Virus record (IMG/VR): IMGVR_UViG_3300037590_000079
Location: 1-64,000 of that record
Direction: 5' to 3' (one strand)
From: a virus
Lineage: Duplodnaviria; Caudoviricetes
DNA length: 64,000 nt
A model generated the notes under the pieces. It searched no databases. It worked only from the letters and a program-made list of their open reading frames with translations, and had not been told where the DNA came from. The position numbers and the translations under genes were made by a program. Position 1 is the stretch's first letter. Every line of letters starts with the position of its first letter. Shown piece by piece: positions 9,235 to 55,618 of this stretch.

Positions 9235-9876
9235 ATGTCCGATATCTACGAAAAAAAGCGCCTTCGCATCGTCGAGAAGGGGTTCGAGACCTATACCGGC
9301 GAACTGAGCGTCTACATGTTCGAGAACGGCGTCTCCGTCGAGACCATTCCGCGCGTCGAACGCGACCGGATCGCCGCGACGATGGCCTGTGTCGAGGTGG
9401 ACGAAGGTGGCCGCGAGAAGGGCGCCGGCGTCGCCGAGCGTCTCGTGAGCGAATCCAAGGCCCGTGCTCCCGAGCCCGAGCAGACCGAACGCCAGAGCGA
9501 GGATGAGAAGTCGAAGGAGGAGCGGGAGGTGGCCGCCAAGGCGACGATTTCCACCGTCACCTTCTACTCCGAGGATGAGCTCGATGCCGTGATCGCCGAG
9601 GGCGGCATCCATGCGCTGCGCGAGGTGGCGAAGCAGTGGAACCTCAAGGGCCGGTCCATCCCGCAGCTGCGCGATGACGTCCTGAACGCCCAGAAGACCT
9701 TCCTGGAGAACAACCAGGAGATCCGCGAGCAGCGCATGAAGATGATCGAGGCGGGCCAGACCAATCCCGAGCCCGAACCCGGCGCCGACACGAACACCGG
9801 CACCGATCAGGATGCGGTCCAGTCCGCGGCCGAGACCGGCGACATGTCGGCTGCGCTCAACAAGGATCGTGACTGA
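9235..9876 (+). CDS. head-module protein with C-terminal AAETGDMSAALNK tag
   Basis: ORF after the capsid gene; own promoter TTGTTT-N17-TAACAT (9161-9189) with operator at 9168-9185. Confidence 0.75.
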   Translation: MSDIYEKKRLRIVEKGFETYTGELSVYMFENGVSVETIPRVERDRIAATMACVEVDEGGREKGAGVAERLVSESKARAPEPEQTERQSEDEKSKEEREVAAKATISTVTFYSEDELDAVIAEGGIHALREVAKQWNLKGRSIPQLRDDVLNAQKTFLENNQEIREQRMKMIEAGQTNPEPEPGADTNTGTDQDAVQSAAETGDMSAALNKDRD

Positions 9877-9878
9877 GA

Positions 9879-10670
9879 ATGGATATCTATCCGGAGAGCT
9901 ATGACGTCACGCTGTCGGTTCCCGTCCAGGATCCGGCGGGTCGGAACTTCAACCCCGACAGCGTGACGGCGACCCTGTATGATCAGGACGACGAGATGGT
10001 GGCCGATCTCGGCTCCGTCCCGTTCGTCTCCGGACAGACCAGTCTCGATATCACGGTTCCTCGTGCGAATCTGACCGTTCCCCTGCACCAGCGCCGCGCA
10101 GCCTTCACCCTGCGCGTGACCTTCATGTCGCAGAGCGGATCCTTTCCCCGGACGATCGTTTTCGCCGTCGAGCGCGATGCGGCGCTTCGGGTGATGACGA
10201 ACTCGTTCCTGACATTCGCGCGCGCCGAGATGCTCGCCGTCGATCACACCAATGCCGATGGCTGGCACGCCGCGGAGGAATCCGCACGCAAGCACGCCCT
10301 CGTCGAGGCATTCGTGCGCCTGCAACGCATTCCCATGCAGTTCACCCCGCGCGATGACGAAGGCAATCTCCTGCCCGACAAGCGCCAGGTGATCCCGCGT
10401 GATCTCTGGCCGAAGGAAACCAGGGCGGATTTCGACGCCTATCCCGAGCACTTCCGCAACGCCCTGCGCATGGCCCAGTTCGTCGAGGCCGACAACATTC
10501 TCAGAGGCGAGATCGTCGCGCGCAAGCGTGCCGAAGGGATCGTCGAGGAGGAGGTTCACGAAAGCCGTATGGAAATCTCGCCGACGGTCGTCTCCTACGA
10601 CATCTGCGAGGCGGCAATGGTCGTGCTTGCCGGCTATGTCGATTTCGATATCCGTGTCGGGAGGGCGTGA
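9879..10670 (+). CDS. head-tail connector/adaptor protein
   Basis: NSFLTFARAE...W...RKHALVEA pattern typical of adaptors; synteny. Confidence 0.6.
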   Translation: MDIYPESYDVTLSVPVQDPAGRNFNPDSVTATLYDQDDEMVADLGSVPFVSGQTSLDITVPRANLTVPLHQRRAAFTLRVTFMSQSGSFPRTIVFAVERDAALRVMTNSFLTFARAEMLAVDHTNADGWHAAEESARKHALVEAFVRLQRIPMQFTPRDDEGNLLPDKRQVIPRDLWPKETRADFDAYPEHFRNALRMAQFVEADNILRGEIVARKRAEGIVEEEVHESRMEISPTVVSYDICEAAMVVLAGYVDFDIRVGRA

Positions 10671-11008
10671 TGTTCCGGCCCAATCTCACGGGATCCATTC
10701 GGACAAGGATCGGCTATGATGTTCATGGCCGTCCGAAACTGTCGCAGCCGCGGCCCGTGCGTTTTTCGCAGGCGGAATTCGGCCGCGATATCATGCGCAC
10801 GCCTGATGGGGCGGCGTCGGCAGGTGCGGCAGGGCAGGGGACGGCGGCCGACAGCGTGATCCTGATAGATCGGAAGGCGAAGATCGACATCGAGGATGTC
10901 TTCACCTTCGACGGCCAGGACTACCGCGTGATGGCCGTCTATCCGCGCCGCGACATCACCGGATTCGTGGATCACTACGAGGCCGCCCTGGAGCTGTTCG
11001 AGGGATGA
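10670..11008 (+). CDS. head-closure protein (putative)
   Basis: GYDVHGRP N-terminus, beta-rich, about 112 aa; synteny. Confidence 0.55.
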   Translation: MFRPNLTGSIRTRIGYDVHGRPKLSQPRPVRFSQAEFGRDIMRTPDGAASAGAAGQGTAADSVILIDRKAKIDIEDVFTFDGQDYRVMAVYPRRDITGFVDHYEAALELFEG

Positions 11009-11490
11009 TGAAGGGAAGCATCTCCGCGACGGGCATCGGCCACGTCAGGACGATGTTCCGCAACCTGGGCCGCAAGGTTCCGGACCAGGCGCGCGGCCAG
11101 ATGCGCCGGGCGTCGCGGCGCATCGTCGAGCAGGCGCAGATCAACGTGCCCGAGGATGAAGCGCTGCTGCGCGACTCCATTCGCATCGAGCGCACCACGG
11201 GCTTCAGGGGCCGGCTTCAGATCGATATCGTCGTCGGTGGGCAGGTGGTCACGAACGCGCGCGGAAAGCAGATCGACCTGGACCGCTATGCCCTTCTCGT
11301 TCACGAAGCCTACGAGACGGCCGTGGCCACGAAGGGGCCGGGCAAGCGGACGCGCGAGAAGATGCTCCAGTATCCGCAGGCCACGATCGGCTCGAAATTC
11401 CTTGAGCGTGCGGTCGATAAGGAGCGGGCGCGCTTGCAACGCAACATGACGACGATCATCGACCAGATCATTGAGAGGGAACAGCGGTGA
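11005..11490 (+). CDS. HK97 gp10-like neck/tail completion protein
   Basis: VPEDEALLRDSI, YALLVHE, KFLERA motifs. Confidence 0.7.
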   Translation: MMKGSISATGIGHVRTMFRNLGRKVPDQARGQMRRASRRIVEQAQINVPEDEALLRDSIRIERTTGFRGRLQIDIVVGGQVVTNARGKQIDLDRYALLVHEAYETAVATKGPGKRTREKMLQYPQATIGSKFLERAVDKERARLQRNMTTIIDQIIEREQR

Positions 11491-11903
11491 TTCACGATAT
11501 CGTCGAACGCAAGATCGAGAGAGCGGGGCTCGCGCGAACGGCGCGCAGCCTGTTTCGCGAGCACATGCCGCCCGATGTCTCGGAAGCGGTCATGACACGG
11601 CTGCCCATCGAAGGGGTGAGCATCGACTTCAACATGCCCGGATTTCACCGGACGAGCATGCAGGTCATCGTGCGCAATCCCGACCCCGAGAAGGGGATGA
11701 AGCTGGCCACGGACATCATGAACGTGCTGAGCGTCACGGGTGGGCAGGAGCTGCATCCCGCGACGCGGGAGCGCGGCGAGGTGCGTCTGAAGCTGTTTCA
11801 TCCGCGTCACCTGCCGGCGCGGTTTCCGCGTCTCGAAGGCGACGAGCTTGAATTTTCCATCAATTTCCTGGTGGTTTTCTCGATCAGGCCGCTGGGGGTC
11901 TAG
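11487..11903 (+). CDS. tail terminator/minor structural protein
   Basis: MQVIVRN...FSINF pattern; immediately before the major tail protein. Confidence 0.6.
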   Translation: MIHDIVERKIERAGLARTARSLFREHMPPDVSEAVMTRLPIEGVSIDFNMPGFHRTSMQVIVRNPDPEKGMKLATDIMNVLSVTGGQELHPATRERGEVRLKLFHPRHLPARFPRLEGDELEFSINFLVVFSIRPLGV

Positions 11904-11986
11904 GCTTAGACCTTGCCTGGGACCATATCGTCTGATAGGTTCTAAGTAACTGCTGACTTACCCTCATTCTCGCACGGAGTATCGAA

Positions 11987-12808
11987 ATGGGCACCGAAAA
12001 TGTAAAACTGGGCGTTTGCAACGTCTTTTTCGACGGCCAGGATCTTGGCCTCACCAAGGGCGGCGTCGAGGTCGAGGCCGCAACCGAAACCCACGAAGTC
12101 ACCGTTGACCAGTATGGCAACACGGTGATCAACGAGATCATCATCGGTCGGTCGGTTTCCGCGAATGTGCCGATGGTCGAGACCACGCTGGACAACATGG
12201 TCCGGATCATGCCGGGCGGCGTGCTCGTGACCGATGGCGATTTCGCCTCGGGCACCGTGACGCTTTCGGCCGCACCGGCCGACGGCGACACCGTCGGTGT
12301 CTTTGGCACGACCTTCACCTTTCGCACCACGCCGAGCGCGCAGCACGATGTGCTGATCGGTGCCGACGAGGTCGCATCGGCCGAAAACCTGGCCGACACC
12401 GTGAATGGCGCGGTCATCCCGATCTCCGCCGAGGTCACGGCCGATGGCGAAGTCACGATTACCGCCAACAGCCGCGGCTCGGAATGGAACCTGACCGTGT
12501 CGAGTAGCGGTGTCGCGATCACCACGGCCGACATGACCGGTGGGGTCGATGTGACCAAGGCGCGCGTTGACGTGCCGACCGGCGTGAACATCAGCCTCTC
12601 GTCGATCGCCAAGAAACTGGTCCTGCGTCCCATCGGCACCTCGGGCGAGGATGACTTCATCATCTACAAGGCAGCCGCACCCGGCGCGCTGAACTTCACC
12701 TACAACGTCGATCAGGAGCGCATCTACACGGCCAACTTCAAGGGCTATGTCGATCCGCAGTCCGGCGGCGCCCTCTTCGCGGTCGGCGACGAAGACGCAA
12801 CCGCGTGA
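11987..12808 (+). CDS. major tail tube protein with an inserted beta-domain
   Basis: NVKLGVCNVFFDGQDLGLTKGGVEV N-terminus; promoter TTGCCT-N17-TAGGTT and operator at 11943-11960; followed by a terminator and chaperones. Confidence 0.85.
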   Translation: MGTENVKLGVCNVFFDGQDLGLTKGGVEVEAATETHEVTVDQYGNTVINEIIIGRSVSANVPMVETTLDNMVRIMPGGVLVTDGDFASGTVTLSAAPADGDTVGVFGTTFTFRTTPSAQHDVLIGADEVASAENLADTVNGAVIPISAEVTADGEVTITANSRGSEWNLTVSSSGVAITTADMTGGVDVTKARVDVPTGVNISLSSIAKKLVLRPIGTSGEDDFIIYKAAAPGALNFTYNVDQERIYTANFKGYVDPQSGGALFAVGDEDATA

Positions 12809-12813
12809 TCGTG

Positions 12814-12846
12814 ACCGGGCCTGAAAAGGCCCGGTTCTTCCTTCTC
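12814..12846 (+). terminator. terminator after the tail tube gene
   Basis: ACCGGGCC-TGAAAA-GGCCCGGT followed by a pyrimidine tract. Confidence 0.65.
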
Positions 12847-12869
12847 TCAAGACATCAGGATAACACAGT

Positions 12870-13229
12870 ATGACCACCGAGGTTCTCAATCTCGAAGACC
12901 TGAAGACCGCTCCGAAAGTGGCTCTTCAGCTGCCCGACGGCACGCGGCACGAGATGCGGCAGGCAACCGTTCAGAGCTTCATCGATCACGTCAAGATGGT
13001 CGAGGACATGCCTCCCAATGCCGGCATTTCCCAGGAAATGGAGATGCTGATCAAGGTCATCCTGAGCGCCTTTCCGACGCTCAGCGAGGAGATTGTGCGG
13101 TCCTGGCCGCTTCCCTACCTGGAGCAGATCAACGAGTTCGTGCAGGCCAAGTCCGGCATGGTCGCCACCCAGGACGGGCAGAAGGCCGAGGAGGCCGAAG
13201 CGTCGGGAAACGGTTCGACGGCGACCTGA
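12870..13229 (+). CDS. tail assembly chaperone (gpG-like)
   Basis: Between tail tube and tape measure genes; in-frame slippery G GGA AAC at 13205-13211. Confidence 0.8.
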   Translation: MTTEVLNLEDLKTAPKVALQLPDGTRHEMRQATVQSFIDHVKMVEDMPPNAGISQEMEMLIKVILSAFPTLSEEIVRSWPLPYLEQINEFVQAKSGMVATQDGQKAEEAEASGNGSTAT

Positions 13230-13570
13230 AATCCGTCGATCTCGGATTTCTCGTCGCCAAGGTCGTGCGCGAATACCGGATGGGGCTCGACGAGGTTCTC
13301 GATCTTCGCCTGCGCAGGTTCTGGTTCCTGGTGAACACCGCGGACCGGCTCAAGGCGGAAGAGGATATCCGCCTTTTGCAGATCTTCGGGTCTGCGCAGA
13401 GCGAGAAGGGGTTCGAAGAGGCTCAGAAGGCCCTGCGTGCCGAAATGGGTCAACAGGTCTTCGTCTGGGAAGAGAAGACCAGGGATGAAATGAGGATCGT
13501 GCCTGACAACGGTCTCGATCCCGAATTCGACAGGAAGGGGCTGCAAGCCCTGAAGGCGATGGCGGGCTGA
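13211..13570 (+). CDS. tail assembly chaperone -1 frameshift extension (gpT-like)
   Basis: The -1 frame is open from the slippery site (RFDGDLKSVDLGFLVAKVVREY...) to TGA at 13570. Confidence 0.8.
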   Translation, partial: RFDGDLKSVDLGFLVAKVVREYRMGLDEVLDLRLRRFWFLVNTADRLKAEEDIRLLQIFGSAQSEKGFEEAQKALRAEMGQQVFVWEEKTRDEMRIVPDNGLDPEFDRKGLQALKAMAG

Positions 13571-13583
13571 CAGGAAGGTCGAG

Positions 13584-16500
13584 ATGACGAGCAATATCCG
13601 GGTCGATCTTGAGCTGCGGGACGGCTCCTTCACGTCAGCCATGCTCCGGGCCAACCAGTCCCTGTCGTCGTTCCGCAGGGAGCTGGCCCGCGTCGATCCG
13701 CATTTCCGCAAGATGACGGCCAGCAGCAAGAACGCCGTGGTCGGCGTTCAGCGCACCGACAAGGCAAGCCGGTCGCTGCTCGGCACCATGCGCGATCTCA
13801 CCATCGTCGCGGGCGGCCTCTCGATGGCCTTCCACACGCTGACCGGCACCGGCAGCAACCTGATCGGTCAGATCACCAACATCAACGCGCAGATCGAGCG
13901 GATGCGCTTCCAGATGATGGCGATGTCCACCTCGGCCAAGCCGATGGAAGAGGCCGCGAACTCGGTCGATTTCCTGCGGCAGAAGGCCAAGGAAGCGCCG
14001 TTCTCCCTGCGCCAGCTCTCCGACAGCTTCGTCAAGATGAAGGCGACGGGAATCGATCCGATGAACGGATCGCTGACCGCGCTGGCCGACGGCATCGCGG
14101 CCTTCGGCGGCTCCGACCAGGAACTGCACCGCGTCTCGCTCGGCATCCGGCAGATGTCGGGCAAGTCGGTGATCCAGATGGAAGAGCTTCGCCAGCAGCT
14201 CGGCGAGGCGATGCCCAATGCCATGAACGTGATGGCGCGCTCGATGGGCGTCTCTGTGGCCGAGCTGACCGATGCCGTCTCGACGGGTCGTGTCGAGGCG
14301 TCGTCGGCGCTGAGCGCCTTCTTCGACGAGCTTGACCGCACCTATGGCGGCGCCGCGCAGCACATGATCGAGAGCTTCTCCGGCCAGGTCTCGCTGCTTC
14401 AGGCGAATCTTCAGATCCTCGCGACCCAGGGTGGGCTCAAGCGCTTCTTCGAGGAAGAGAAGGAGGCGATGGTCGGCCTCAACGACTTTCTCCAGGGCGC
14501 AGAGGCGGCGCAGTTCGCGAACGCGCTCGGCGACACGCTGACGGCGGTCATGAGCGGTCTGAAGGCCGTGACCCAGACCGCTTTCGAGTTCCGCTCCGAG
14601 ATCGGCACCCTGGCCAAGGTTCTGGCTGCCGGAATTGGTCTGCGCATGCTCGTGGGCAGTCTCGGGATGGTCGCGACGAGCTTCCGCTCGGCCGCCCTCT
14701 CGGCGACCGCGTTCCGGTCGTCGATGGCGCTTGCCTCGGCCGATTTCATGATGGGTGTGCGCGGGCTGCGGCAGGGTCAGCACGCAACGACCGCCTTCCA
14801 GATCGCCGCCGGCGGCGCGAGCCGCATGATGAGCACTCTCGGCGGCACCCTCATTCGTGCGATTCCGGGTGTCGGTCTCTTGGCTTCGGGGGTGCTGCTT
14901 CTGGCCGAGAACTTCGATCTGATGGGCAGCTCCACCAAGCAGGCGTATGAGGAGCTGCGCGAATTCGGTGCCGCCTCGAAGGAAGAAGCCGAGAAGATCG
15001 TCAGTGCCGAAGAGCAGCGCCTGAACGAACAGATCGCGCTTCGTCAAGAAAACCTGAGCCGTCTTGAGAACATTCGGAATGAGGGATCTGTCGAACGCAG
15101 CCTTTTCCGTAACGAAGAGGATCTCAATAAGGCGATTGAAAACACCAGTGCCGCGCTTCAGTCTCTTATCGATGAGCGCGACCAGCTTCGCGAGAATAGT
15201 GTCGATCTGATCGAGGAAGCGGGTAACACCGAGGAGGCGTCCAGCGGCCGTCGCTTCGAGCGGGCTCTGCGCGAGCGCCTGCGCGAAAGCAGGCAGATCT
15301 ACACGCGGGAAATCGTCGAGGCCGAGAAAGCCTATGCCGAGGCGCGCAAGGTCGCCGAGGAAGGTGACAACAGCATGATCAGCGCGCGTGAGAAGTTCCG
15401 CGATCGCCTCGACGAGATCACCCAGAAGCAGAACGAGAGCGTCGTCTCCATGCTCGAAAAGGAGGAGACGCAGGTTCGCGCGAAGATCGAGGATGCGCAG
15501 GGGCAGGAGCGTGAGAACCTGCTCCGGCATCTCGCGATCATCGAGCGGATGCAGGCTGATGCGTATCGCAAGATGCGCCAGGAACGCGCCGAGGGTATCA
15601 GCCTCGTGCCCGAGACGATCTCGAACGAGCAGCGGATTGATCGCGGTGCCGACAGGCTGCGCCAGGTCACTGAGGAGGTCCAGGGTCTCCAGGCTTCGCT
15701 CGCCGGGGCGGGCAGCGAGTTCGCGCGGCTCCAGTTCCGCATCCAGCGCGGTGATTACGGCGAGATCGAAGGTGCGACCGAGGCGGTCAAGGAGATGCAC
15801 GAGGCACTGCTTCGCGCGACCCAGCAGAAGGAAGCCCTCGACAAGCTGATGCAGGGTCAGAATCGCGCCGAGAACGATATCGAGGCGATCGAGGATGACA
15901 TTCGGCAGCGTCAGATGGCGCTGGAATTCGCCGCGTCCGGACGCGACATGAACGAAGCCGACAGGTTCCTGGCCCGGCTCAGGAATGGGGCTTTCGAGGG
16001 TCTCGGGCCGGTGGAGAATATCCGTCGCTCGATCAATCGCGTGACCGAGTCTCTTGGCGGCCAGGGGTCGATCGCCCAGAATGTCGGCAAGGTGATGCGC
16101 GAGAACACCTTCGGCAAGGGCACGTTCGAGAAGATCAGGACCATTCGCGACGCGATCCGGGAAGTGGGCGACGCGCTCACCGACCTGAAGACCGGCGATC
16201 TGTTCGGCCCGGTCAGCACGTTCCTGGGCGGCGCAATGCCGTCGGTCGGCAATTTCACCAATGCCGGGCCGAGCACCGCCATGCTGGATCTGATCGCACG
16301 CGCCGAAGGCACCGTCGGCAAGTCGCGGAGCCGCGGCTTCAACACGACCCTGGGCTTCGGGGCCTTCACGGGTGGCGAGCGCGACCTGGTGAACATGACG
16401 CTGCGCGAAATCCTCGCGCTTCAGCGCCAGATGCTTCAGCATCCCGACAATCACTTCAACTCGTCCGCGCTCGGCAAGTTCCAGATCGTCGGCTCCACGC

Positions 16501-18206
16501 TCGGTGGTAAGGGAATCGACGGCAAGGGCGGTCTGATCGAGCAGCTCGGGCTGAGCCTCGATCAGAAGTTCACGCCGGAGCTTCAGAACCGTCTCGCGAT
16601 GACGCTCCTGGAGCGCCGTGGCGGCAATGTCTCCGAGCTGCGCAAGGAGTGGCAGGGGCTGCGCGATGTCAGCGCCGAGGAGATCAGGCGTGCCTATCTC
16701 GAAGGCGCCGAGCAGGGCCTGCGCGAGGCGGGGCTGCCCGAGAACGTGCCGACCTTCGACTTCGAGGATATGGTTCGGCGCCAGGTCAACACGACGGCGA
16801 ATCTTGAGGGGCGCGGAGAGGCCGCCAGGGCGGAGCTGGAGCGGCTTCGCGTCGCCGAGCTGGAACAGGAGCGCGCGGATCGCGAGCGCGCACTCAGCGC
16901 CGAGCTGGAGGCTCTGAACGCGTCCCTGGGTGACGTGGGCACCGGCAATGTCACGCGGCGCATGATGGAGCGCATTCGCGCCGGCGATCTCGGTGACAAC
17001 CTCGATCCGCAGTCGGAGCAGTATCGCGAGATCCTGCGGCTCGCTCGCGAGATCGATGCGACCGAGGAACGGCTTCAGGAAAAGCGGCAGGCACAGAGCC
17101 AGTCCACCTCGCAGCTCGAAGCGCTTGAGCGGCAGCGCCTCGATATCCAGCGTCAGATCACCGAGGCGAACCGGCGTGCCGAAGATCCCGATTACCAGGG
17201 GCAGAGCCGCGATCTTCAGCGCCTGATCGAACAGCTCGATGACTATGTCGAGAATATTCGGATCGCGTCCGGCGAGGACAGCAAGGCGTTCCGCGACGCG
17301 ACGCGGTTCCGTCAGGAGATGATCGCGAGCCAGCGGCGCCTCGATGCGGCCGAGAGCTTCGCCGATTTCCGCAAGGACACGCGCGATCTCGAAGATAACC
17401 TGCGCACGCGCGATCAGATGCGCCGTGTCCAGATGCAGCGCGATATCGCAAAGGTCGATGCCTGGCTTCAGCGTCAGCGCGAAGCGGGTGCCGAAGAGGT
17501 GGCGATCGTGCGCGAGGCAGAGCGGCGCAAGGCCGCGATCCGCGAGCGTTTCGCACGGCAGACCAGCCCGGTCACGCAGCAGATGAAGGAATGGGCCGAC
17601 TTCTCCGGGAACATCAAGGAGAAGACGACCGGCTGGCTCGACAGCCTGTCATCGGGAATGGCCGGGCTCATCACGGGCACCGGGAGTCTGCGCAACGCGA
17701 TCAACGGAATCCTCAATGATATCGTGACCTCGCAGATCCGCTTTCTGTGGTCGAGCATGGCCGGCGAAAAGACGCAGGAAGCCGGCAGCAAGCTCGGCGC
17801 GGCCATCGGTGTAAAGCACGGCGGCGGCATTGCCGGGCAGAGCAGGGGTCGCAGGCGGCGCGTGTCGATGGCGACCTTCGCCAATGCGCCGCGCTACCAC
17901 ACCGGCGACATCGTGAAGCCGAGGCTGAAGACCGGCGAGGTGCCGATCATTGCCAAGCGCGGCGAAGGCATTTTCACGCCCGAGCAGATGAAGGCTCTGG
18001 CACCCGTCGGCACGCAGGGACAGGCGATCACGATCAACTCCCCGATCACCGTCGAGGGAAGCGCCGGCACGCCCGAGCAGAATCAGGATCTGGCAAAGCG
18101 CATGTCGCGCGAGATGGAGAAATCGATGCGCGGTGTCGTCGTCGAGGAGCTTCGGCGGCAGTCCAGGCCCGGCAACATGCTCGGTAACACGAGAGGGCGC
18201 AGGTAA
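13584..18206 (+). CDS. tape measure protein with an embedded lysozyme-like domain
   Basis: 1540 aa, helical; tape-measure motif QMSGKSVIQMEELRQQLGEAMP; LDLIARAEG...SSALGKFQIV...LRKEWQGL at about 16278-16661. Confidence 0.92.
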   Translation: MTSNIRVDLELRDGSFTSAMLRANQSLSSFRRELARVDPHFRKMTASSKNAVVGVQRTDKASRSLLGTMRDLTIVAGGLSMAFHTLTGTGSNLIGQITNINAQIERMRFQMMAMSTSAKPMEEAANSVDFLRQKAKEAPFSLRQLSDSFVKMKATGIDPMNGSLTALADGIAAFGGSDQELHRVSLGIRQMSGKSVIQMEELRQQLGEAMPNAMNVMARSMGVSVAELTDAVSTGRVEASSALSAFFDELDRTYGGAAQHMIESFSGQVSLLQANLQILATQGGLKRFFEEEKEAMVGLNDFLQGAEAAQFANALGDTLTAVMSGLKAVTQTAFEFRSEIGTLAKVLAAGIGLRMLVGSLGMVATSFRSAALSATAFRSSMALASADFMMGVRGLRQGQHATTAFQIAAGGASRMMSTLGGTLIRAIPGVGLLASGVLLLAENFDLMGSSTKQAYEELREFGAASKEEAEKIVSAEEQRLNEQIALRQENLSRLENIRNEGSVERSLFRNEEDLNKAIENTSAALQSLIDERDQLRENSVDLIEEAGNTEEASSGRRFERALRERLRESRQIYTREIVEAEKAYAEARKVAEEGDNSMISAREKFRDRLDEITQKQNESVVSMLEKEETQVRAKIEDAQGQERENLLRHLAIIERMQADAYRKMRQERAEGISLVPETISNEQRIDRGADRLRQVTEEVQGLQASLAGAGSEFARLQFRIQRGDYGEIEGATEAVKEMHEALLRATQQKEALDKLMQGQNRAENDIEAIEDDIRQRQMALEFAASGRDMNEADRFLARLRNGAFEGLGPVENIRRSINRVTESLGGQGSIAQNVGKVMRENTFGKGTFEKIRTIRDAIREVGDALTDLKTGDLFGPVSTFLGGAMPSVGNFTNAGPSTAMLDLIARAEGTVGKSRSRGFNTTLGFGAFTGGERDLVNMTLREILALQRQMLQHPDNHFNSSALGKFQIVGSTLGGKGIDGKGGLIEQLGLSLDQKFTPELQNRLAMTLLERRGGNVSELRKEWQGLRDVSAEEIRRAYLEGAEQGLREAGLPENVPTFDFEDMVRRQVNTTANLEGRGEAARAELERLRVAELEQERADRERALSAELEALNASLGDVGTGNVTRRMMERIRAGDLGDNLDPQSEQYREILRLAREIDATEERLQEKRQAQSQSTSQLEALERQRLDIQRQITEANRRAEDPDYQGQSRDLQRLIEQLDDYVENIRIASGEDSKAFRDATRFRQEMIASQRRLDAAESFADFRKDTRDLEDNLRTRDQMRRVQMQRDIAKVDAWLQRQREAGAEEVAIVREAERRKAAIRERFARQTSPVTQQMKEWADFSGNIKEKTTGWLDSLSSGMAGLITGTGSLRNAINGILNDIVTSQIRFLWSSMAGEKTQEAGSKLGAAIGVKHGGGIAGQSRGRRRRVSMATFANAPRYHTGDIVKPRLKTGEVPIIAKRGEGIFTPEQMKALAPVGTQGQAITINSPITVEGSAGTPEQNQDLAKRMSREMEKSMRGVVVEELRRQSRPGNMLGNTRGRR

Positions 18207-18556
18207 TGGCATTCGAGACTTTCAATCCGCCGGTGAGCCCGTCGCCCGGCGCAAGCCACGATTACGCACCGGCGGTCAACCGCGCGGAGTTCGGCGATGG
18301 CTACACCCAGTCGTCGCCGCGTGGGCTGAATCATGTGAAGCTGAAGATCAAGTTCACCTGGGACGGCGTCGTCGATCAGGACATGCAGACGATCATCGGC
18401 TTCTTCGATGCGCGGGGCGGCACTGAGCCGTTCTGGTATCAGCCGCACGGCTACACGGCGGCGCGCAAATGGACCTGCGCGAAATGGTCCGTCACCGACG
18501 GACCGCCCTGGCGCATCACGGCCGATTTCGAGGAGTCGTTCATTCCCGATCCGTAG
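18206..18556 (+). CDS. distal tail protein (lambda gpM-like)
   Basis: FGDGYTQ...GLN...FFDARGGTEPFWYQP. Confidence 0.85.
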   Translation: MAFETFNPPVSPSPGASHDYAPAVNRAEFGDGYTQSSPRGLNHVKLKIKFTWDGVVDQDMQTIIGFFDARGGTEPFWYQPHGYTAARKWTCAKWSVTDGPPWRITADFEESFIPDP

Positions 18557-18609
18557 GCGCCTCTTGCTTATCAGTCAGTTGTTACTTATGCTTGGTCCGA
18601 GAGGTGAGC

Positions 18610-19323
18610 ATGAGCGATATTTCGTCTGAAAACCAGAGCCTGACGCCGTCGAGCATCATCCCGCTGTTCACGCTCGATGCGTCGAGCATCAACGGGCCTG
18701 TTCTGCATTTCACGATGAACCAGAAGGCGGGAGGTCAGAGTGTCGTATTCGACGGCGTGACCTACGCGGTCACGGATATCGAGTTCGACGGGCTGGAAAC
18801 GAGCGGGCTGGGATCGCTGCCCACGCCGAAAATCCGCATCGCGAGCCAGGACAACACGATCCAGGCCCTCGGCAACACCTACGGCGATCTGAACGGCTGC
18901 GTGCTCAAGCGCATCCGGACCTACAAGCGCTTTCTCGACGGCGAGCCCGACGCCGACCCGACCGCCTTCATCGGCCCCGATGTCTTCCGTTTCGAGCGCA
19001 AGACGGCCGACAGCCCGGACATGTTCGAGTGGGAGCTGTCCGCAGCGATCGACCAGGAAGGCGCGATGTTTCCCGGCCGCGTGGTGGTCGCCAATACCTG
19101 CATGTGGCGCTACCGCGTCTGGAATCCCGACACCGAGACCTTCGACTATTCCAAGGCCCAGTGCCCGTATACCGGCGCACAGTCCTACGACATCAACAAC
19201 AACCCCGTCAGCAGCGGCGCGGATGACGTGCCCTCGCGCGATCTGAAGTGCTGCAAGACACGCTTCGGCGCGGATCAGCCGTTGCCCTTCGGGGGATTTC
19301 CGGGAGCTGCGAGGATCGGATGA
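18610..19323 (+). CDS. minor tail protein L
   Basis: RTYKRFLD, NTCMWRYR, CPYTG, CKTRFG, PFGGFPG; promoter TTGCTT-N17-TATGCT with operator at 18571-18588. Confidence 0.9.
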   Translation: MSDISSENQSLTPSSIIPLFTLDASSINGPVLHFTMNQKAGGQSVVFDGVTYAVTDIEFDGLETSGLGSLPTPKIRIASQDNTIQALGNTYGDLNGCVLKRIRTYKRFLDGEPDADPTAFIGPDVFRFERKTADSPDMFEWELSAAIDQEGAMFPGRVVVANTCMWRYRVWNPDTETFDYSKAQCPYTGAQSYDINNNPVSSGADDVPSRDLKCCKTRFGADQPLPFGGFPGAARIG

Positions 19324-20790: not shown

Positions 20791-20794
20791 TCTC

Positions 20795-33350: not shown

Positions 33351-33369
33351 AGTTCGTTGAGGGAGCGAC

Positions 33370-33915
33370 ATGAGTGATCCGTATCCGATGGAGATCTGGG
33401 GCGTTTCTCTGGAGCACGAAAAGGGCACGAAAGCGTATGATATCAAGGTCGTTTCGTCCTCCGCGGGGCCTGCCATCGTAATCTTTCGGTGGGGAAAGGT
33501 CGGTGTGCGCGGTGACATTCTCGTCAAGCGCTTCGACACCTATACCGAGGCGAAAAGCGCGGCCGAGGCCAAGAAAAGGGAGAAAAAGACCAGGGGATAC
33601 GATCAGACCTCCATTTCGGAAGCAAAAGTGGTGAATGGAAGATTTTCTCTGGTCCAGGCCATCGGCCGTCCCACACTGGCCAAGCTCGATCCTGATGACA
33701 TCACGCATATCGATCCCGATTTCGACACAAAGGGCATGCGCAGGCGCGAGCCGCCTCGGCTCGACGAGGACGGTCGGCTGAATCAGCGCGCCCTGCGCGA
33801 TAAGGAGCTGCGCGAGAAAGAGGAGCTGCGAAAGTTCCGCGAGGAACAGCGCAGGAAAGAGGAGGATGAAGCCGAATCCTTCTACAGGAACAACCCGCTA
33901 TACGGAGCATTCTGA
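33370..33915 (+). CDS. WGR-domain protein with C-terminal YRNNPLYGAF tag
   Basis: KAYDI...FRWGKVG...EKKTRGY. Confidence 0.7.
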   Translation: MSDPYPMEIWGVSLEHEKGTKAYDIKVVSSSAGPAIVIFRWGKVGVRGDILVKRFDTYTEAKSAAEAKKREKKTRGYDQTSISEAKVVNGRFSLVQAIGRPTLAKLDPDDITHIDPDFDTKGMRRREPPRLDEDGRLNQRALRDKELREKEELRKFREEQRRKEEDEAESFYRNNPLYGAF

Positions 33916-34439
33916 TGAGCCACTACCAGACGCTTTTCCCCGAAAACCAGCTCAGGATCATCTGCCCGATCTTCAATGCCGAAACGAAGTTCTCGGATTG
34001 CGTGAGGCTGCGCCACAAGGTCTGGCGGGGCGAGCGGCCGGCCGTGCGGCAGGGCTGCCAGGCGTGCATGTCGGCCGGGAAATGCCCGGTTGCCGTGATC
34101 GTTCAGCGCATGGCGATGGCACCGCTTTCCGCACCGATGCCCGACGATTATCACGCGAGCGAACCCCGGCGCGGCAAGCTGAAAGCGGATGTTCTCGAAC
34201 GCATCGCACCGGTGATCGTCACCGAACGCGTGATGGCGCGCTACTCGCTTTCCGACACCGAAATCTCGGCAATCACGTCGGCGAATGCGCGCATCAGCAA
34301 GCAGGCCGGCTCCGCACCCGAGCCCACGTCTTCCTCGCCTTCGCCGCGCAAGAAGCCCGCCAGGAAGCGCGCGCCCGACAATGCCGTCAACCAGGCTGCC
34401 GCGTCCGGCGACATGTCGGCCGCTCTGAACAAGGACTGA
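33915..34439 (+). CDS. Cys-rich (possibly Zn-binding) protein with C-terminal AAASGDMSAALNK tag
   Basis: CPIF...C...CQAC...KCP; translationally coupled. Confidence 0.65.
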   Translation: MSHYQTLFPENQLRIICPIFNAETKFSDCVRLRHKVWRGERPAVRQGCQACMSAGKCPVAVIVQRMAMAPLSAPMPDDYHASEPRRGKLKADVLERIAPVIVTERVMARYSLSDTEISAITSANARISKQAGSAPEPTSSSPSPRKKPARKRAPDNAVNQAAASGDMSAALNKD

Positions 34440-49918: not shown

Positions 49919-49931
49919 AAGCGAGGCTATC

Positions 49932-52197: not shown

Positions 52198-52254
52198 CCC
52201 TTCTCATGCGCGCCTGTTCTGCTATAACACCTGAAATAGCAGAACAGGCGTATC

Positions 52255-52782
52255 ATGAAGGTCATAAGCATCTGGCAGCCGTTCGCCTCTCTCGTCGTTC
52301 ATGGCTGCAAGGTTTTCGAAACACGAGGATGGCCCGCGCCGCAATCGCTGATCGGTCGAGAGCTGGGTATCGCCGCGACCAAGTCGATCAATCCCGCACA
52401 GCGCGCTCACTGCGCCCAGGAGAGCTTCCAGCTGTCTTATGCTGCTACTGCCCTGCCCGAGTGGGAAACGCTTCCCAGGGGCGCTCTGCTGGGCCATGTG
52501 ACGCTCTGCGCGGTCGAGGAGATCGACGAGGAGCTTCTGGAGAACGTCTCCGTGCATGAGCAGGCGTTCGGCTGGTGGGAGCCGGGTGGATACGCCTGGC
52601 GCCTGACGAACCCGGTGATCTACCCCGAGCCCGTTCCGATCCGCGGCAGGCAGGGCATCTTCGACTGGAACGGGAATCCGTATCATGTCGGATCTTCGGA
52701 GGATGAAGCAGGCCGCCAAGGAGCTGGTCCGGGGCGGCCGGACGAACCGGAGACTTTACGGCGGCATCTACGAGCTGTCTGA
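52255..52782 (+). CDS. ASCH-domain protein
   Basis: ISIWQPFASLVVHGCKVFETRGW...RGRQGIF. Confidence 0.85.
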   Translation: MKVISIWQPFASLVVHGCKVFETRGWPAPQSLIGRELGIAATKSINPAQRAHCAQESFQLSYAATALPEWETLPRGALLGHVTLCAVEEIDEELLENVSVHEQAFGWWEPGGYAWRLTNPVIYPEPVPIRGRQGIFDWNGNPYHVGSSEDEAGRQGAGPGRPDEPETLRRHLRAV

Positions 52783-53101
52783 CGGCCGCAACGTCTACCT
52801 CGCCTATCGCTGGCGCAAGGAGATCTTCCTCAATGGCGAGAAATCCATCAACGCGGCCCTCGACAAGGGGGTCGCGTGCTGGGCGATGGACCAGGACACC
52901 CTGTTCAACATGCGGATCAGGATGATCGAGATCGTCGGGGTCTACATGCGCGACGAGCGCAATATCTACATCACCCGGCTGGAAAATTTCTTCGATACCG
53001 ACAAGTCCAGGATCATGAATTTCGAACGGCGGGGTGGTGCGTTGCAGCGATATCTTCCGCTGCAATATTTCGACATGCTCAAGGGAAGATCGAAGATTTA
53101 G
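52685..53101 (+). CDS. hypothetical protein
   Basis: ORF with typical codon usage; start uncertain. Confidence 0.6.
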   Translation: MSDLRRMKQAAKELVRGGRTNRRLYGGIYELSDGRNVYLAYRWRKEIFLNGEKSINAALDKGVACWAMDQDTLFNMRIRMIEIVGVYMRDERNIYITRLENFFDTDKSRIMNFERRGGALQRYLPLQYFDMLKGRSKI

Positions 53102-53169
53102 AAGTTCCCGCGATCATTTCGTCGCGTGTTCTGCTATAAAGTAAGTAAGACATGACATAAGAGGGGCTT

Positions 53170-53892
53170 ATGAAACAGGACAAGACAGGCCAGATCGTCG
53201 CCAATCCCAACAGCAATGGCCAGGAAATGATCAAGGCTATGGACTTCGCGATGAGGGTTCGTCCCGACCTGACCAAGTCGGTTCTTTCGAGGCTCCTCGC
53301 GTGGATGCGCGAGGATGGCGTTGTCGAGATGAAGAAGGGCGACGGTCTGGGTGTCGCCTATCACTTCGCGGAGCGCGACAAGGCCGCGTTCATGGCGTTC
53401 ATTCGTGACCAGAGAAACGTCGGTGTCGCGATCTCCGAAATCTGCAAGATGTCCTCGGGCAAGCCCATCATCGACGAGGAGATCGACGGTGTTCGTCTGA
53501 GGGCCGGAACGCGCGAGGAGGCGCGGGATCTCATTCGCATGGCGTTCGGCATCAACGAACAAATAACGGACGAGAAGAATGCCCTGATCGAGCGCGTGAA
53601 AAGTCGCGACGAGGTGATCGAGGCTCTCAAGAAGGAGCTTCGGAGGGCTGGAAGGACCAAGGACGAATATTGGCGGCGCGTGCGCATTGCCGAGCACGGC
53701 AACAAGGAGCGTGACGCGCAGATCAACAACCTGCAAGAGAATGTGGGCTCGCTGATCGAGCAGATGGCGGAACAGGGAATGCGGCCGCGTCTCAAGATCC
53801 GCTCCCCTGTCCCCCTTCCCAGGAAGAAAGCGCGCCCGTCGAAAAAGATGTGCGATGTTATCTCCGAGATCGAGAAGAGGATCATCAAGTGA
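53170..53892 (+). CDS. hypothetical coiled-coil protein
   Basis: GAGG RBS; upstream TCTGCTATAA and operator at 53142-53159. Confidence 0.65.
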   Translation: MKQDKTGQIVANPNSNGQEMIKAMDFAMRVRPDLTKSVLSRLLAWMREDGVVEMKKGDGLGVAYHFAERDKAAFMAFIRDQRNVGVAISEICKMSSGKPIIDEEIDGVRLRAGTREEARDLIRMAFGINEQITDEKNALIERVKSRDEVIEALKKELRRAGRTKDEYWRRVRIAEHGNKERDAQINNLQENVGSLIEQMAEQGMRPRLKIRSPVPLPRKKARPSKKMCDVISEIEKRIIK

Positions 53893-54965
53893 CCTATGCA
53901 GTCGTTTCCGACATTCACGCGCACGCGTGGAACCTGTTCTCCACGACGCTCGACAGCGGCGTCAACTCCCGGCTCCAGGTTGTTCTGGACGAATTGCGCA
54001 GGACGGCATCGACGCTTCGCGCAAAGGGCGGAAAGTCCCTGATCGTCGCCGGCGACGTGTTTCACAAGCGCGAATTTCTCGACCAGGAGGTGCTCAATCC
54101 GGTGCGTGCCGTGTTCCGCGAAATCGCGGAGAGCGGTATCACGGTCGTGATCATCCCCGGCAATCACGATCTCAAGTCCGAGGAGACCTGCGAGCTGTCC
54201 AGCTCGGTGCAGAATTTACGCCAGAGCACCGCGAAGGGCTCGGTGCATGTCGTCAACGAGCCCAAGATGATCGCGCTGAACGGATACATTGTCGGCCTTG
54301 TGCCCTGGCGGCCGCGGCGCGAGGATCTTCTGGCCGACATGGAAGCGCTCTCGAAGCACGGCAAGGCGGCAGAGGCCGACGTGTTCATTCATGCCGGTAT
54401 CGACGGCGTGCTCTCGGGTGTGCCGGCGAACGGGCTGACGGCGTCGGATCTTGCGGCTTTCGGCTTCCGGCGCGTTTTCGCCGGGCATTATCATCATCAC
54501 AAGGACATGGGCAGCGGCGTCTATTCCATCGGCGCCACGACGCATCACAACTGGGGTGACATCGGCACGCTCGCAGGCTTTCTCACGGTCGATGAAAGCA
54601 GTGTCGAATTCCACGACACCCAGGCGCCGAAATTCATCGATATCTCCGGCATGTCCGAGGATGACATGGAGCTTGAAGTGCCCGGCAACTACGCGCGCTT
54701 CCGTGGCCCGCAGATGTCCCAGGAGGATATCAACGCGTTTCGCAGGCAGCTGCGGGACTGGGGTGCGAAAGGTGTTTCCATCGAGGTGCCGCGCGCAGTC
54801 GTCGCCGCACGCGCACCCGCGTCATCCGGCAAGTCCCTCGCGGAGTCGCTGCGCGATTTCGTCCGGCAGGACAAGAATGTCCCGCAGCATCTCGACCGCG
54901 ACAAGATCTCCGCGCGCGCCGAGGAGGTGCTGACGGAAGTCCAGAGCGTCACGGAGGATGCCTGA
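53889..54965 (+). CDS. sbcD: SbcD/Mre11-like metallophosphoesterase
   Basis: SDIH, AGDVF, PGNHD, GHYH. Confidence 0.85.
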   Translation: MTYAVVSDIHAHAWNLFSTTLDSGVNSRLQVVLDELRRTASTLRAKGGKSLIVAGDVFHKREFLDQEVLNPVRAVFREIAESGITVVIIPGNHDLKSEETCELSSSVQNLRQSTAKGSVHVVNEPKMIALNGYIVGLVPWRPRREDLLADMEALSKHGKAAEADVFIHAGIDGVLSGVPANGLTASDLAAFGFRRVFAGHYHHHKDMGSGVYSIGATTHHNWGDIGTLAGFLTVDESSVEFHDTQAPKFIDISGMSEDDMELEVPGNYARFRGPQMSQEDINAFRRQLRDWGAKGVSIEVPRAVVAARAPASSGKSLAESLRDFVRQDKNVPQHLDRDKISARAEEVLTEVQSVTEDA

Positions 54966-55192
54966 TGGAGCAGTGGCACTGGAGCGAGTGGATCGCGCAT
55001 GACGACAAGGGCTGGCCCGAGGGCGTCGAGCCCGACGAGATCGTTCTCGCCGATATCGATGGCGACATCATGACGCCCATGCCGGCATGCCGGATTTCCT
55101 GGCACTGTCCGGGCGACCCGGTGCGCCGGTTCAGGCGGCGCATCTGGTCTGCGCCTGCACAGGCCGAAAAGACCCGCGAGCATTCCGTCTAA
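54965..55192 (+). CDS. hypothetical protein
   Basis: Coupled ORF, WSEWIAHD. Confidence 0.55.
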   Translation: MEQWHWSEWIAHDDKGWPEGVEPDEIVLADIDGDIMTPMPACRISWHCPGDPVRRFRRRIWSAPAQAEKTREHSV

Positions 55193-55243
55193 GTATCTGT
55201 TATAAGTGACTAAATGCAGAGACAAGCAAGAGGGGAAAGTCTC

Positions 55244-55618
55244 ATGGCGCAGCTTTACGATATCAGCTTCACGACCTCGAAGATCGCGAGTGTCTACGAC
55301 GAGAAAGGCAATCTCACCACGCAGCGGTCGATGAACGAACCGATCCGGCTGACCGCCCTGCCCTACAGCACCGCCAAGGCGTATAGCGGCTGCGACAACT
55401 TCGAGATGGTTCCGCACGAGCCCGAGGCACGGCGTGGGCGCAAGACGCAGTCCGGCAGGGCCAAGTGGGGCGAGGCCGCGCCGCTCAAGACCGAGCGCGT
55501 GTCGAAGGGCAAGCGGACCGGCGAGATCACCGTGACCAAGGCGGGCAAGAACAGCGGCAAGTCGAGCGTGCAGCGCGCCGCCGAAACCGGCGATTATTCC
55601 GCCGCGATCAATAAGTAA
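55244..55618 (+). CDS. basic protein with C-terminal AAETGDYSAAINK tag
   Basis: GAGGGG RBS; upstream TCTGTTATAA promoter/operator-like element. Confidence 0.7.
   Translation: MAQLYDISFTTSKIASVYDEKGNLTTQRSMNEPIRLTALPYSTAKAYSGCDNFEMVPHEPEARRGRKTQSGRAKWGEAAPLKTERVSKGKRTGEITVTKAGKNSGKSSVQRAAETGDYSAAINK

What the first reader, a model, noticed from the sequence alone, without database searches (positions are those of the whole stretch)
9814..55618. Three unrelated proteins share a C-terminal peptide tag, V-x-x-A-A-x-[TS]-G-D-[MY]-S-A-A-[LI]-N-K
Seen: ORF 9235-9876 (after the capsid gene) ends AVQSAAETGDMSAALNKDRD; ORF 33915-34439 (Cys-rich, before the ligase) ends AVNQAAASGDMSAALNKD; ORF 55244-55618 ends SVQRAAETGDYSAAINK. 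The rest of the three proteins look unrelated, and each tag follows a low-complexity linker. The DNA copies differ at synonymous positions, which points to selection on the peptide. All three genes are first or second downstream of operator-bearing promoters. Inference: a phage-encoded docking or addressing signal. It could mark cargo for capsid loading and ejection, substrates for the phage's CobS/CobT-like AAA+-VWA machine or a host protease, or ligands of a shared host target. I do not recognise it as a described motif.
Basis: partly seen in the sequence, partly recalled or inferred. Interest (0 to 1): 0.85.

Follow-up and report, generated by a model that had tools for sequence, protein, structure and literature searches.

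The report
Shared docking peptide on unrelated phage proteins
Three unrelated proteins of this 110-kb phage-plasmid end in the same short peptide, which also sits on at least five protein families in two kinds of mobile elements of Alphaproteobacteria; it looks like an undescribed docking tag whose binding partner is still unknown.

Summary
Exactly three ORFs in the 109.7-kb genome carry [IVL]-x-x-A-A-x-[ST]-G-D-[MLY]-[ST]-A-A-[IL]-N at the C-terminus; 100 shuffles gave 0 matches. Their cores are unrelated.

The same peptide is on five BLAST-unlinked families:
- A: the protein after the capsid gene
- B: a Cys-rich protein between WGR and ligase
- C: a small protein between SbcD-like and SbcC-like genes
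- D: a Phage_TAC_11-like protein
- E: RIIB-like

All 20 alphaproteobacterial relatives searched carry it. So does a separate ~13-kb integrated capsid/terminase/tape-measure element.

Synonymous sites vary freely. Linkers are hypervariable and modelled as disordered, and the tag is modelled as helix, G-D turn, helix. The tag is missing from five Gamma/Betaproteobacteria-infecting relatives that keep the head genes and CobS/CobT. It was also not found in 400 other alphaproteobacterial genomes sampled, nor on chromosomal proteins of five host genomes.

Best reading: a tethered docking peptide for one shared partner. That partner is probably not the capsid, portal or CobS/CobT, but a host factor or a clade-specific phage protein. 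It was not identified.

Other notes from this scan flagged a second shared tail in this genome; I found it independently.

The parts
9235..9876 (+). Family A gene (213 aa), directly after the major capsid gene; phrog_916, no Pfam family; N-terminal domain, helix-hairpin-helix-like segment, linker, tag
   Evidence: orthologues in all relatives including tag-negative ones
9754..9810 (+). Low-complexity linker of A (GQTNPEPEPGADTNTGTDQ)
   Evidence: not conserved in orthologues
9811..9864 (+). Tag copy 1 (DAVQSAAETGDMSAALNK), 3 residues before the stop
   Evidence: (36.6 bits, E 9e-10)
33915..34439 (+). Family B gene (174 aa) between the WGR gene and the DNA ligase gene; core 1-131 with four invariant Cys
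   Evidence: (core pLDDT >90); no fold match
34308..34379 (+). Basic/Pro/Ser-rich linker of B, hypervariable with indels, modelled at pLDDT about 50
34380..34433 (+). Tag copy 2 (NAVNQAAASGDMSAALNK), 1 residue before the stop; modelled as helix 157-164, G-D turn, helix 168-173
   Evidence: (35.9 bits)
55244..55618 (+). Family C gene (124 aa from ATG 55244), in the stretch between the SbcD-like (53850-54965) and SbcC-like (57637-59577) genes; beta-rich core 1-60
   Evidence: position confirmed in pLM21S1; Metallophos hit for 53850-54965
55424..55561 (+). Basic linker of C, hypervariable, modelled at pLDDT 47-63
55562..55615 (+). Tag copy 3 (SSVQRAAETGDYSAAINK), ends at the stop; modelled as helix 108-115, turn, helix 119-122
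   Evidence: (35.1 bits)

Best explanation
The tail is a short linear docking motif. Its core is A-A-x-[ST]-G-D-[MLY]-[ST/A]-A-A-[IL]-N with a hydrophobic residue three positions upstream, and the most persistent part is D-[MLY]-[SA]-x-[AV]-[IV]-N. It hangs on a flexible, fast-evolving linker and probably folds into a small helix-turn-helix hairpin with the G-D at the turn when it binds. In this way it tethers otherwise unrelated phage proteins to one common partner. The tagged proteins include the post-capsid packaging-position protein A, the Cys-rich partner B of the WGR/ligase repair cassette, the small protein C of the SbcCD-like cassette, RIIB-like proteins in relatives, and a TAC-like protein of a small integrated element. 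The partner is most likely specific to the alphaproteobacterial setting: either a host protein or one of about ten phage proteins restricted to the tag-bearing clade, of which the RIIA-like ATPase is the largest. It is unlikely to be a conserved virion protein or the CobS/CobT machine. Shown: the conservation, peptide-level selection, modular architecture, clade restriction and absence from host proteomes. Inferred: binding, folding on binding, a single shared partner, and the partner's identity.
For: (1) Recurrence. 42 of 44 viral-contig hits, 8 genome hits and 20 metagenome hits are tag copies, most within 1-9 residues of a stop, in five BLAST-unlinked families. All 20 relatives searched have 1-4 copies. 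(2) Peptide-level selection. All four Ala codons and both Ser codon classes are used. Positions the search pattern left free are still constrained: -3 is I/V/L in 36 of 48, and position 6 is only M/L/Y. (3) Architecture. A conserved core, a hypervariable linker with indels and a near-invariant tag. AlphaFold gives cores at pLDDT >90, linkers at about 50, and the tag as helix, G-D turn, helix. (4) The motif need not be terminal. It sits in an internal linker of RIIB-like proteins and of some A and B proteins, as expected of a linear motif rather than a carboxy-terminal signal. (5) One shared partner. Tags of different families within one genome are more alike at variable columns than across genomes (0.53 vs 0.465, permutation p about 0.006), with no excess third-base identity (0.446 vs 0.444), so this is not gene conversion. 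(6) Clade restriction. There are 0 matches in five Gamma/Betaproteobacteria-infecting relatives that keep the head genes, the A orthologue and CobS/CobT. The B analogue in phage nickie keeps the same layout with a different terminal peptide. (7) Not host mimicry. Five host genomes hold it only in prophage or phage-plasmid regions, and 0 of 400 other sampled alphaproteobacterial genomes match. (8) Family B behaves like an adaptor with a string of motifs. 107 of 150 representatives carry the tag, and about 30 add a further terminal motif ...SLLE[RLM]AR....
Against: No partner was identified, so binding is entirely inferred. The within-genome similarity effect is modest, rests mostly on the residue after the N and on upstream columns, and is not corrected for relatedness of the genomes. 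The family D element shares no BLAST-detectable candidate receptor with the phage-plasmids apart from tape-measure segments and a homing endonuclease. A phage-encoded partner therefore requires the extra assumption that this element depends on such phage-plasmids as helpers. A 16-residue hairpin could also act by self-association. The functional theme linking the five families is unclear.
Confidence: 0.55

Rival explanations
1. Capsid-loading signal: the tag binds the inner surface of the procapsid (coat, scaffold or portal), so that tagged proteins are packaged and ejected with the DNA, as with encapsulin cargo-loading peptides or T4 capsid-targeting sequences.
For: Families A and D are encoded next to capsid genes. 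A lies directly after the major capsid gene. D lies between the portal and the protease::capsid fusion in all 12 loci examined. The layout, a short helical peptide on a flexible linker on unrelated proteins, matches known cargo tags (my knowledge of encapsulins, T4 and the P22 scaffold).
Against: Portal, DUF6651 scaffold-position protein and capsid are conserved (36-52% identity to phage nickie) in relatives with no tag at all. The family D element has the same tag but head proteins with no BLAST similarity to this phage's. B, C and E sit in repair and rII modules.
Confidence: 0.1
2. Client tag for the phage CobT-like VWA / CobS-like MoxR AAA+ machine: the invariant Asp at the hairpin tip completes the MIDAS metal site of the VWA domain, and the ATPase then remodels the tethered client.
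For: The G-D is invariant at a predicted turn. The CobT-like protein (39719-42019) has an intact MIDAS motif with D570, S572, S574 and D700 invariant in 61 homologues. MIDAS sites bind ligand carboxylates (established for integrin and VWA domains). Nickie's B analogue ends with S-T-A-D-F, also [ST]-x-D-hydrophobic.
Against: CobT/CobS are present in tag-negative relatives and absent from the family D element, so they do not track the tag. No alternative shared tail was seen in nickie.
Confidence: 0.07
3. Degradation tag: the peptide is a degron or adaptor-binding site that delivers transiently needed phage proteins to a host AAA+ protease.
For: It is usually near the C-terminus, is Ala-rich, and many copies end in -AA or -AAA. 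Some carriers sit at positions held by assembly factors (A after the capsid gene, D TAC-like).
Against: Residues after the motif vary freely (K, KD, KDRD, AEA, GVK, NRSK...), and the motif can lie 13-97 residues from the end. The conserved part is an internal helix-turn-helix, not the terminal residues. No host protein carries it. A ClpP-family gene does not co-occur with it.
Confidence: 0.1
4. Self-association module: tags pack against each other through their small-residue faces and so oligomerise or co-assemble the tagged proteins without any separate receptor.
For: It resembles one Sel1/TPR-type hairpin: most chance hits in bacterial genomes are Sel1-type repeats of the form WFxxAAxSGDLTAAFNLG. 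The faces are Ala-rich. Elements with a single tagged protein exist (G015). Weak within-genome concerted evolution would also fit tag-tag contacts.
Against: Sixteen residues is very short for a stable bundle. The models give low confidence for the tag alone. Self-association does not explain the restriction to phages of Alphaproteobacteria.
Confidence: 0.1
5. Chance similarity, a recombining DNA cassette, or a nucleic-acid signal at 3' gene ends.
For: In this genome the last tag codons (AAC/AAT AAG ...) lie just upstream of tightly coupled downstream genes.
Against: 0 of 100 shuffles give any match. Synonymous sites are unconstrained across 48 copies. There is no excess third-base identity within genomes. 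The residues after the N vary between genomes.
Confidence: 0.01

Closest known systems
Sliding-clamp-binding C-terminal tails of phage T4 (gp43, gp33, gp55 binding gp45) and bacterial clamp-binding motifs (QL[SD]LF)
   Same: Unrelated phage proteins share a short, usually C-terminal peptide on a flexible tail that docks them onto one hub.
   Different: The sequence is unrelated to clamp-binding motifs, and no link to a clamp was found. The carriers include proteins at head-module positions, not only replication or transcription factors. (The T4 and clamp facts come from my own knowledge, not from a tool.)
Acidic C-terminal tails of SSB and of T7 gp2.5/gp4
   Same: A conserved terminal peptide acts as a protein-recruitment handle in phage DNA metabolism.
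   Different: This tag is not acidic or aromatic. That description fits the second tail in this genome better (acidic run plus ...NPxxG[AR]F).
Encapsulin cargo-loading peptides, T4 capsid-targeting sequences, and the C-terminal helix-turn-helix of the P22 scaffolding protein
   Same: A short peptide or mini helix-turn-helix on a linker, found on unrelated proteins and associated with HK97-fold shells. Two carrier families are encoded beside capsid genes.
   Different: The tag does not track the shell genes. It is absent from relatives with conserved capsids and present with BLAST-unrelated capsid proteins.
Adaptor tethering motifs for AAA+ proteases (the SspB XB motif binding the ClpX N-domain) and ssrA-type degrons
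   Same: A C-terminal peptide shared by unrelated proteins and recognised by one machine.
   Different: There is no sequence resemblance, the position is not strictly terminal, and no host protein carries it.
Sel1-like / TPR repeat hairpin
   Same: The pattern A-A-x-x-G-[DN]-x-x-A-x-x-x-L matches the helix A / turn / helix B junction of Sel1 repeats. Most chance hits of the search pattern in bacterial genomes are such repeats.
   Different: It is a single 16-residue hairpin on a disordered linker, not a tandem array, and there is no Pfam Sel1/TPR hit. No Sel1/TPR-like protein was seen in the tag-bearing genomes by a crude motif scan.

Membership tests
Capsid/encapsulin-type cargo-targeting peptide | Short terminal peptide on a flexible linker, shared by otherwise unrelated cargo proteins | tested here: met
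Capsid/encapsulin-type cargo-targeting peptide | The peptide co-occurs with the shell (or scaffold/portal) protein that holds its binding site | tested here: not met
   Head genes are conserved in five tag-negative relatives. The same tag occurs with head proteins that have no BLAST similarity.
Capsid/encapsulin-type cargo-targeting peptide | Tagged proteins are present inside particles | not testable with these tools
   Needs virion mass spectrometry
Clamp-binding motif proteins | Consensus QL[SD]LF or a related hydrophobic penta/hexapeptide | tested here: not met
   The tag consensus AAx[ST]GD[MLY]SAA[IL]N does not contain it
ssrA/ClpX-type C-terminal degron | Recognition depends on the extreme C-terminal residues and carboxylate | tested here: not met
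   Residues after the motif are variable, and the motif lies 13-97 residues from the end in RIIB-like proteins and in some A and B proteins
Sel1-like repeat proteins | Tandem 36-44-residue repeats detectable by the family profile | tested here: not met
   Single hairpin only; no Pfam hit at E<=1
VWA/MIDAS ligand motif | Exposed acidic residue that completes the MIDAS site of a co-encoded VWA domain | tested here: inconclusive
   An invariant Asp at a predicted turn and an intact MIDAS are present, but the VWA gene does not track the tag. Binding was not testable.
Phage_TAC_11 (GTA gp10-type tail assembly chaperone), for family D | Profile match above the curated cut-off | tested here: met
   78.2 and 49.8 bits against a cut-off of 27.8; phrog_8985
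Phage_TAC_11 (GTA gp10-type tail assembly chaperone), for family D | Encoded between the tail tube and tape-measure genes | tested here: not met
   It lies between the portal and the protease::capsid fusion in 12 of 12 loci. The tape measure is in the same element but not adjacent.
Capsid-forming PICI satellites, for the family D element | Integrase plus own capsid, portal, protease, connectors, HNH and TerL, about 14 kb, no tail or lysis genes (PMC10085698) | tested here: inconclusive
   It has an integrase, portal, protease::capsid, adaptor, head closure, HNH and TerL within about 13 kb, bounded by housekeeping genes, with no tube, baseplate, fibre or lysis genes. It also carries a tape measure, tail-completion proteins and a TAC-like protein. 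No regulator or primase module was seen between the integrase and the portal. Helper dependence is not testable here.

The most novel reading that the evidence does not exclude
The tag is a shared address used by a helper phage and its satellite. The ~13-kb integrated elements (integrase, portal, tagged TAC-like protein, protease::capsid, connectors, TerL, tape measure; no tube, baseplate or lysis genes) would be a new kind of capsid-forming satellite that brings its own tape measure. They would parasitise the SSU5/RHEph10-like phage-plasmids of Alphaproteobacteria, and their TAC-like protein would carry the helper's docking tag so that it plugs into the same helper-encoded hub (for example the RIIA-like ATPase or another clade-specific protein) that organises the helper's own tagged proteins.
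Probability: 0.15. Interest if true: 0.85.

Novelty: new variant of a known kind. Interest (0 to 1): 0.62.

Why it matters
Short docking peptides shared by unrelated proteins are how some well-studied phages wire their proteins to a hub; the T4 clamp and SSB tails are examples. Few such motifs are known in phages, and none that I could find for phage-plasmids. No paper in the searched library contains the peptide strings.

This tag is clean, strongly conserved and easy to synthesise. It marks proteins of unknown function in the repair, rII and head modules of a widespread group of rhizobial and roseobacter phage-plasmids. A single pull-down could therefore name the hub and assign a context to five uncharacterised families at once, RIIB-like proteins among them.

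The tag is also portable, which may make it useful for recruiting proteins in these hosts. Its presence on a compact capsid/terminase/tape-measure island also hints at a satellite-helper relationship in Alphaproteobacteria that can be tested directly.

Tried and rejected
- **Complex prediction**: CobT-like VWA domain (residues 470-766, 61-row alignment) with the tail of B (residues 130-174) and Mg. Score 0.01 against a mark of 0.32, no verdict. It is not evidence either way.
- **ClpP idea**: PF00574 was found in only 1 of 26 records and not in pLM21S1, whose annotation names an S14 peptidase. No co-occurrence, so dropped.
- **Protein shared by this genome and provirus G015** (72486-73022): it carries an HNH motif and is a homing endonuclease, not a receptor.
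- **Host mimicry:** no chromosomal host protein carries the tag.
- **Sel1/TPR receptor encoded by the phage:** a crude motif scan of this genome and G015 found none.
- **Fold searches for the cores of B and C:** nothing significant. Foldseek gave E > 0.3. The second aligner's best was Z 3.4 for B and Z 4.8 for C, the latter to phage p56, a uracil-DNA-glycosylase inhibitor; this is only a weak lead.
- **ESM Atlas look-ups for B and C:** uninformative.
- **An alternative shared tail in tag-negative phage nickie:** none seen.
- **General GTA feature:** rejected. 0 of 400 other sampled alphaproteobacterial genomes match, and family D is not in a tail module.
- **Phyletic filter**: it gave about 12 clade-specific candidates but cannot choose among them.
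- **Literature:** no paper holds the peptide strings, and I found nothing on a shared motif in papers on RHEph10, pLM21S1 or SSU5.

Full report
**1. What is in the window**

The window is the first 64 kb of a single 109,661-bp virus contig with 61% G+C. Its portal, scaffold-position and capsid genes resemble Rhizobium phages RHph_X66, B1VFA and RHEph10. They also resemble roughly 115-kb plasmids of Sinorhizobium (pLM21S1), Shinella, Pararhizobium and Methylobacterium. More distantly they resemble the SSU5-like phage-plasmids of enterobacteria, Aeromonas and Cupriavidus and the Pseudomonas phage nickie. RHEph10, pLM21S1 and SSU5 are all discussed in the published phage-plasmid survey (PMC7969092).

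Six-frame scans give exactly three copies in the window and in the whole genome. A back-translated pattern gives 3 matches against 0 in 100 shuffles. A 48-sequence profile gives three matches at E about 1e-9 and nothing weaker. Outside the tail the proteins are unrelated. BLAST does not link them. A profile-profile comparison of B and C aligns only the tag. The predicted cores have different folds.

**2. The tag is widespread and selected as a peptide**

Orthologues of protein A at 42-49% identity keep A-A-x-[ST]-G-D-[ML]-S-[AG]-A-I while the linker before it diverges. In one of them the motif lies about 35 residues before the end.

A degenerate DNA pattern was scanned over three public collections:
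- Viral contigs: 44 loci, of which 42 are tag copies, most within 1-9 residues of a stop. Many lie on 105-121-kb contigs, and several contigs have more than one copy.
- Bacterial genomes: 8 true copies, all in Alphaproteobacteria (Ruegeria, Shinella, Neorhizobium, Rhizobium, Ancylobacter, Paracoccus, Faunimonas, one unnamed Rhizobiales). The false hits were mostly internal Sel1-type repeats.
- Metagenomes: 20 further true copies.

Clustering the proteins without their tails gives five BLAST-unlinked families:

| Family | Description | Evidence |
|---|---|---|
| A | phrog_916, encoded after the capsid gene | |
| B | Cys-rich, between the WGR and ligase genes | |
| C | about 115 aa, between the SbcD-like and SbcC-like genes | |
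| D | about 130 aa, Pfam Phage_TAC_11 | |
| E | RIIB-like, with the tag in the linker before a C-terminal helix-turn-helix | |

The metagenome scan added no new family. A few lower-scoring tags in relatives sit on ORFs that I could not assign to a family.

Across 48 distinct DNA copies all four Ala codons and both Ser codon classes are used. Positions that the pattern left open are still constrained. The residue three before the A-A is I/V/L in 36 of 48 copies, and the residue after G-D is only M, L or Y. Selection therefore acts on the peptide.

**3. Architecture**

The alignments of B (15 sequences) and C (11 sequences) show the same layout: a conserved N-terminal core, a hypervariable basic/Pro-rich linker with indels, then the near-invariant tag. 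B's core has four invariant Cys. AlphaFold models built on these alignments give core pLDDT above 90 and linker pLDDT about 50. The tag is modelled as two short helices joined at the G-D.

In a profile search of 1.84 billion representative proteins, family B has 221 members. Of the 150 listed, 107 carry the tag at 12 bits or more: 82 within 10 residues of the end, 8 at 11-40 residues, and 17 further in. Most of the others have degenerate versions whose best-kept part is D-[MLY]-[SA]-x-[AV]-[IV]-N. About 30 longer members add a further terminal motif after another linker...[LM]SLLE[RLM]AR...K, and some have only that motif. So B looks like a folded domain trailing a string of short motifs.

**4. 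Distribution and what it says about the receptor**

All 20 alphaproteobacterial relatives searched in full hold 1-4 tags. Five relatives from Gamma- or Betaproteobacteria have none, even at E<=10: nickie, a Cupriavidus plasmid, an Aeromonas plasmid, a Klebsiella phage and a Stenotrophomonas phage.
- They keep terminase, portal, DUF6651 protein, capsid and the A orthologue. That orthologue ends after its helix-hairpin-helix-like segment or in an acidic tail.
- They also keep CobT and CobS.
- Nickie has a Cys-rich protein at the position of B with the same layout but a different terminal peptide.

Five host genomes hold the tag only in their prophage or phage-plasmid regions. None of the other 400 genomes sampled evenly across the class has a match at E<=0.001. 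So the tag is not a copy of a host motif and not a general GTA feature.

A phyletic filter over 7 tag-positive and 4 tag-negative complete genomes leaves a short list. These are the proteins present in at least 6 of 7 tag-positive genomes and 0 of 4 tag-negative ones:
- B, C and the RIIB-like protein themselves
- the RIIA-like ATPase
- WGR
- RepC
- an HD-domain protein
- small proteins of 75 and 99 aa
- a 305-aa unknown protein
- a 198-aa P-loop protein
- an ORF on the opposite strand at 52222-52719, which is probably a shadow of the neighbouring + strand gene (52685-53101; its pLM21S1 match lies in the ASCH-domain region)
- two diverged tail proteins

Tags of different families within one genome are modestly more alike at variable columns than tags from different genomes (0.53 against 0.465, permutation p about 0.006). 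Third-base identity is the same (0.446 against 0.444). This is weak concerted evolution at the peptide level, not gene conversion.

**5. The family D element**

In all 12 loci examined, D lies between a portal gene and a prohead-protease::capsid fusion. The conserved block reads: integrase, portal, D, protease::capsid, phrog_7493 protein, HNH, adaptor, gp10-like and tail-completion proteins, head closure, TerL, tape measure.

In Rhizobium sp. PL01 the block is about 13 kb and is bounded by housekeeping genes. A glycosyltransferase and an FAD oxidoreductase lie on one side. Ppx/GppA, an FtsJ methyltransferase, an MFS transporter and IMP dehydrogenase lie on the other. It has no tail tube, baseplate, fibre, lysis or replication genes.

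Its tape measure is the only structural protein with similarity to this phage-plasmid. The C-terminal ~215-230 residues are 33% identical, a middle segment is 44% identical, and a 60-residue segment in the Rhizobium copy is 67% identical.

This resembles capsid-forming satellites (PMC10085698), but the element has its own tape measure and TAC-like protein. If these elements use the phage-plasmids as helpers, the shared tag no longer argues for a host receptor. For that reason I keep host and clade-specific phage partners as joint favourites.

**6. Mechanism and rivals**

I commit to a tethered docking peptide for one shared partner, at 0.55. The rivals are capsid loading (0.10), a protease degron (0.10), self-association (0.10), a VWA/MIDAS client tag (0.07) and a non-peptide or chance explanation (0.01). 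Their evidence is given in the fields above. The one complex prediction allowed returned no verdict and is listed only as tried.

**7. Comparison with known systems, and novelty**

The tag works like the hub-docking tails of T4 and of SSB, or like cargo-loading peptides. It fails the defining features of each of those families that could be tested. I found no description of it. I rate it a new variant of a known kind: a new motif with an unusual spread over five families and two element types, and an unknown receptor.

Other notes from this scan had already flagged the second shared tail in this genome. I found that tail independently. Its carriers are not paralogues, and variants of it persist in pLM21S1 and even in nickie.

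Noticed in passing
window 33862-33915, 60223-60276; G000 78248-78301 (outside the window): A second shared C-terminal tail. The WGR protein, a 154-aa protein and a 148-aa protein, unrelated by BLAST, all end in an acidic run plus [FIY]Y[RK][NH]NPx[YC]G[AR]F-stop. Variants persist in pLM21S1 (...DDNDLYGRF...NNELFGAF) and at the WGR position in phage nickie (...GWGAFG). It looks like an SSB-type or T7 gp2.5-type docking tail. Other notes of this scan also flagged it.
   Followed up: partly
L108 (G015) 5089-17880; L243/L244 (Rhizobium sp. PL01) 10066-23392; loci L004, L018, L020, L035, L051, L056, L069: A conserved ~13-kb integrated element: integrase, portal, tagged TAC_11-like protein, protease::capsid, HNH, connectors, tail-completion proteins, TerL and tape measure. 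It has no tube, baseplate, lysis or replication genes and is bounded by housekeeping genes. Its tape measure shares segments (33-67% identity) with this phage-plasmid's tape measure. It may be a new satellite type.
   Followed up: partly
family B representatives P0131, P0178, P0187 and others; pAMS5a locus L079: About 30 longer family B proteins carry a further terminal motif ...[LM]SLLE[RLM]AR...K after the tag and another linker, and some have only this motif. The terminal peptide of phage nickie's B analogue (ADFIKRRAALK) resembles it.
   Followed up: no
window 33292-33369, 53102-53169, 55193-55243: A shared promoter-like motif TCTG[CT]TATAAGT[AG]AC in three intergenic regions, including those upstream of the WGR-B operon and of C.
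   Followed up: no
window 39719-42019, residues about 240-440: The CobT-like protein has a ~200-residue Asp/Glu/Gly low-complexity stretch between its N-terminal domain and the VWA domain.
   Followed up: no
G000 71069-72409 (outside the window): This genome's own RIIB-like protein lacks the tag that its orthologues carry in at least seven relatives; its linker is Lys/Glu-rich instead.
   Followed up: partly
window 9191-9210: A G+C-rich hairpin followed by a T-run lies directly after the major capsid gene and before gene A. It is terminator-like and may attenuate read-through from the capsid gene.
   Followed up: no
window 55244-55423 (core of C): The best structural match of the C core is phage p56, a uracil-DNA-glycosylase inhibitor (Z 4.8, 48 residues). 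The match is weak, but C sits in a DNA-repair cassette.
   Followed up: no
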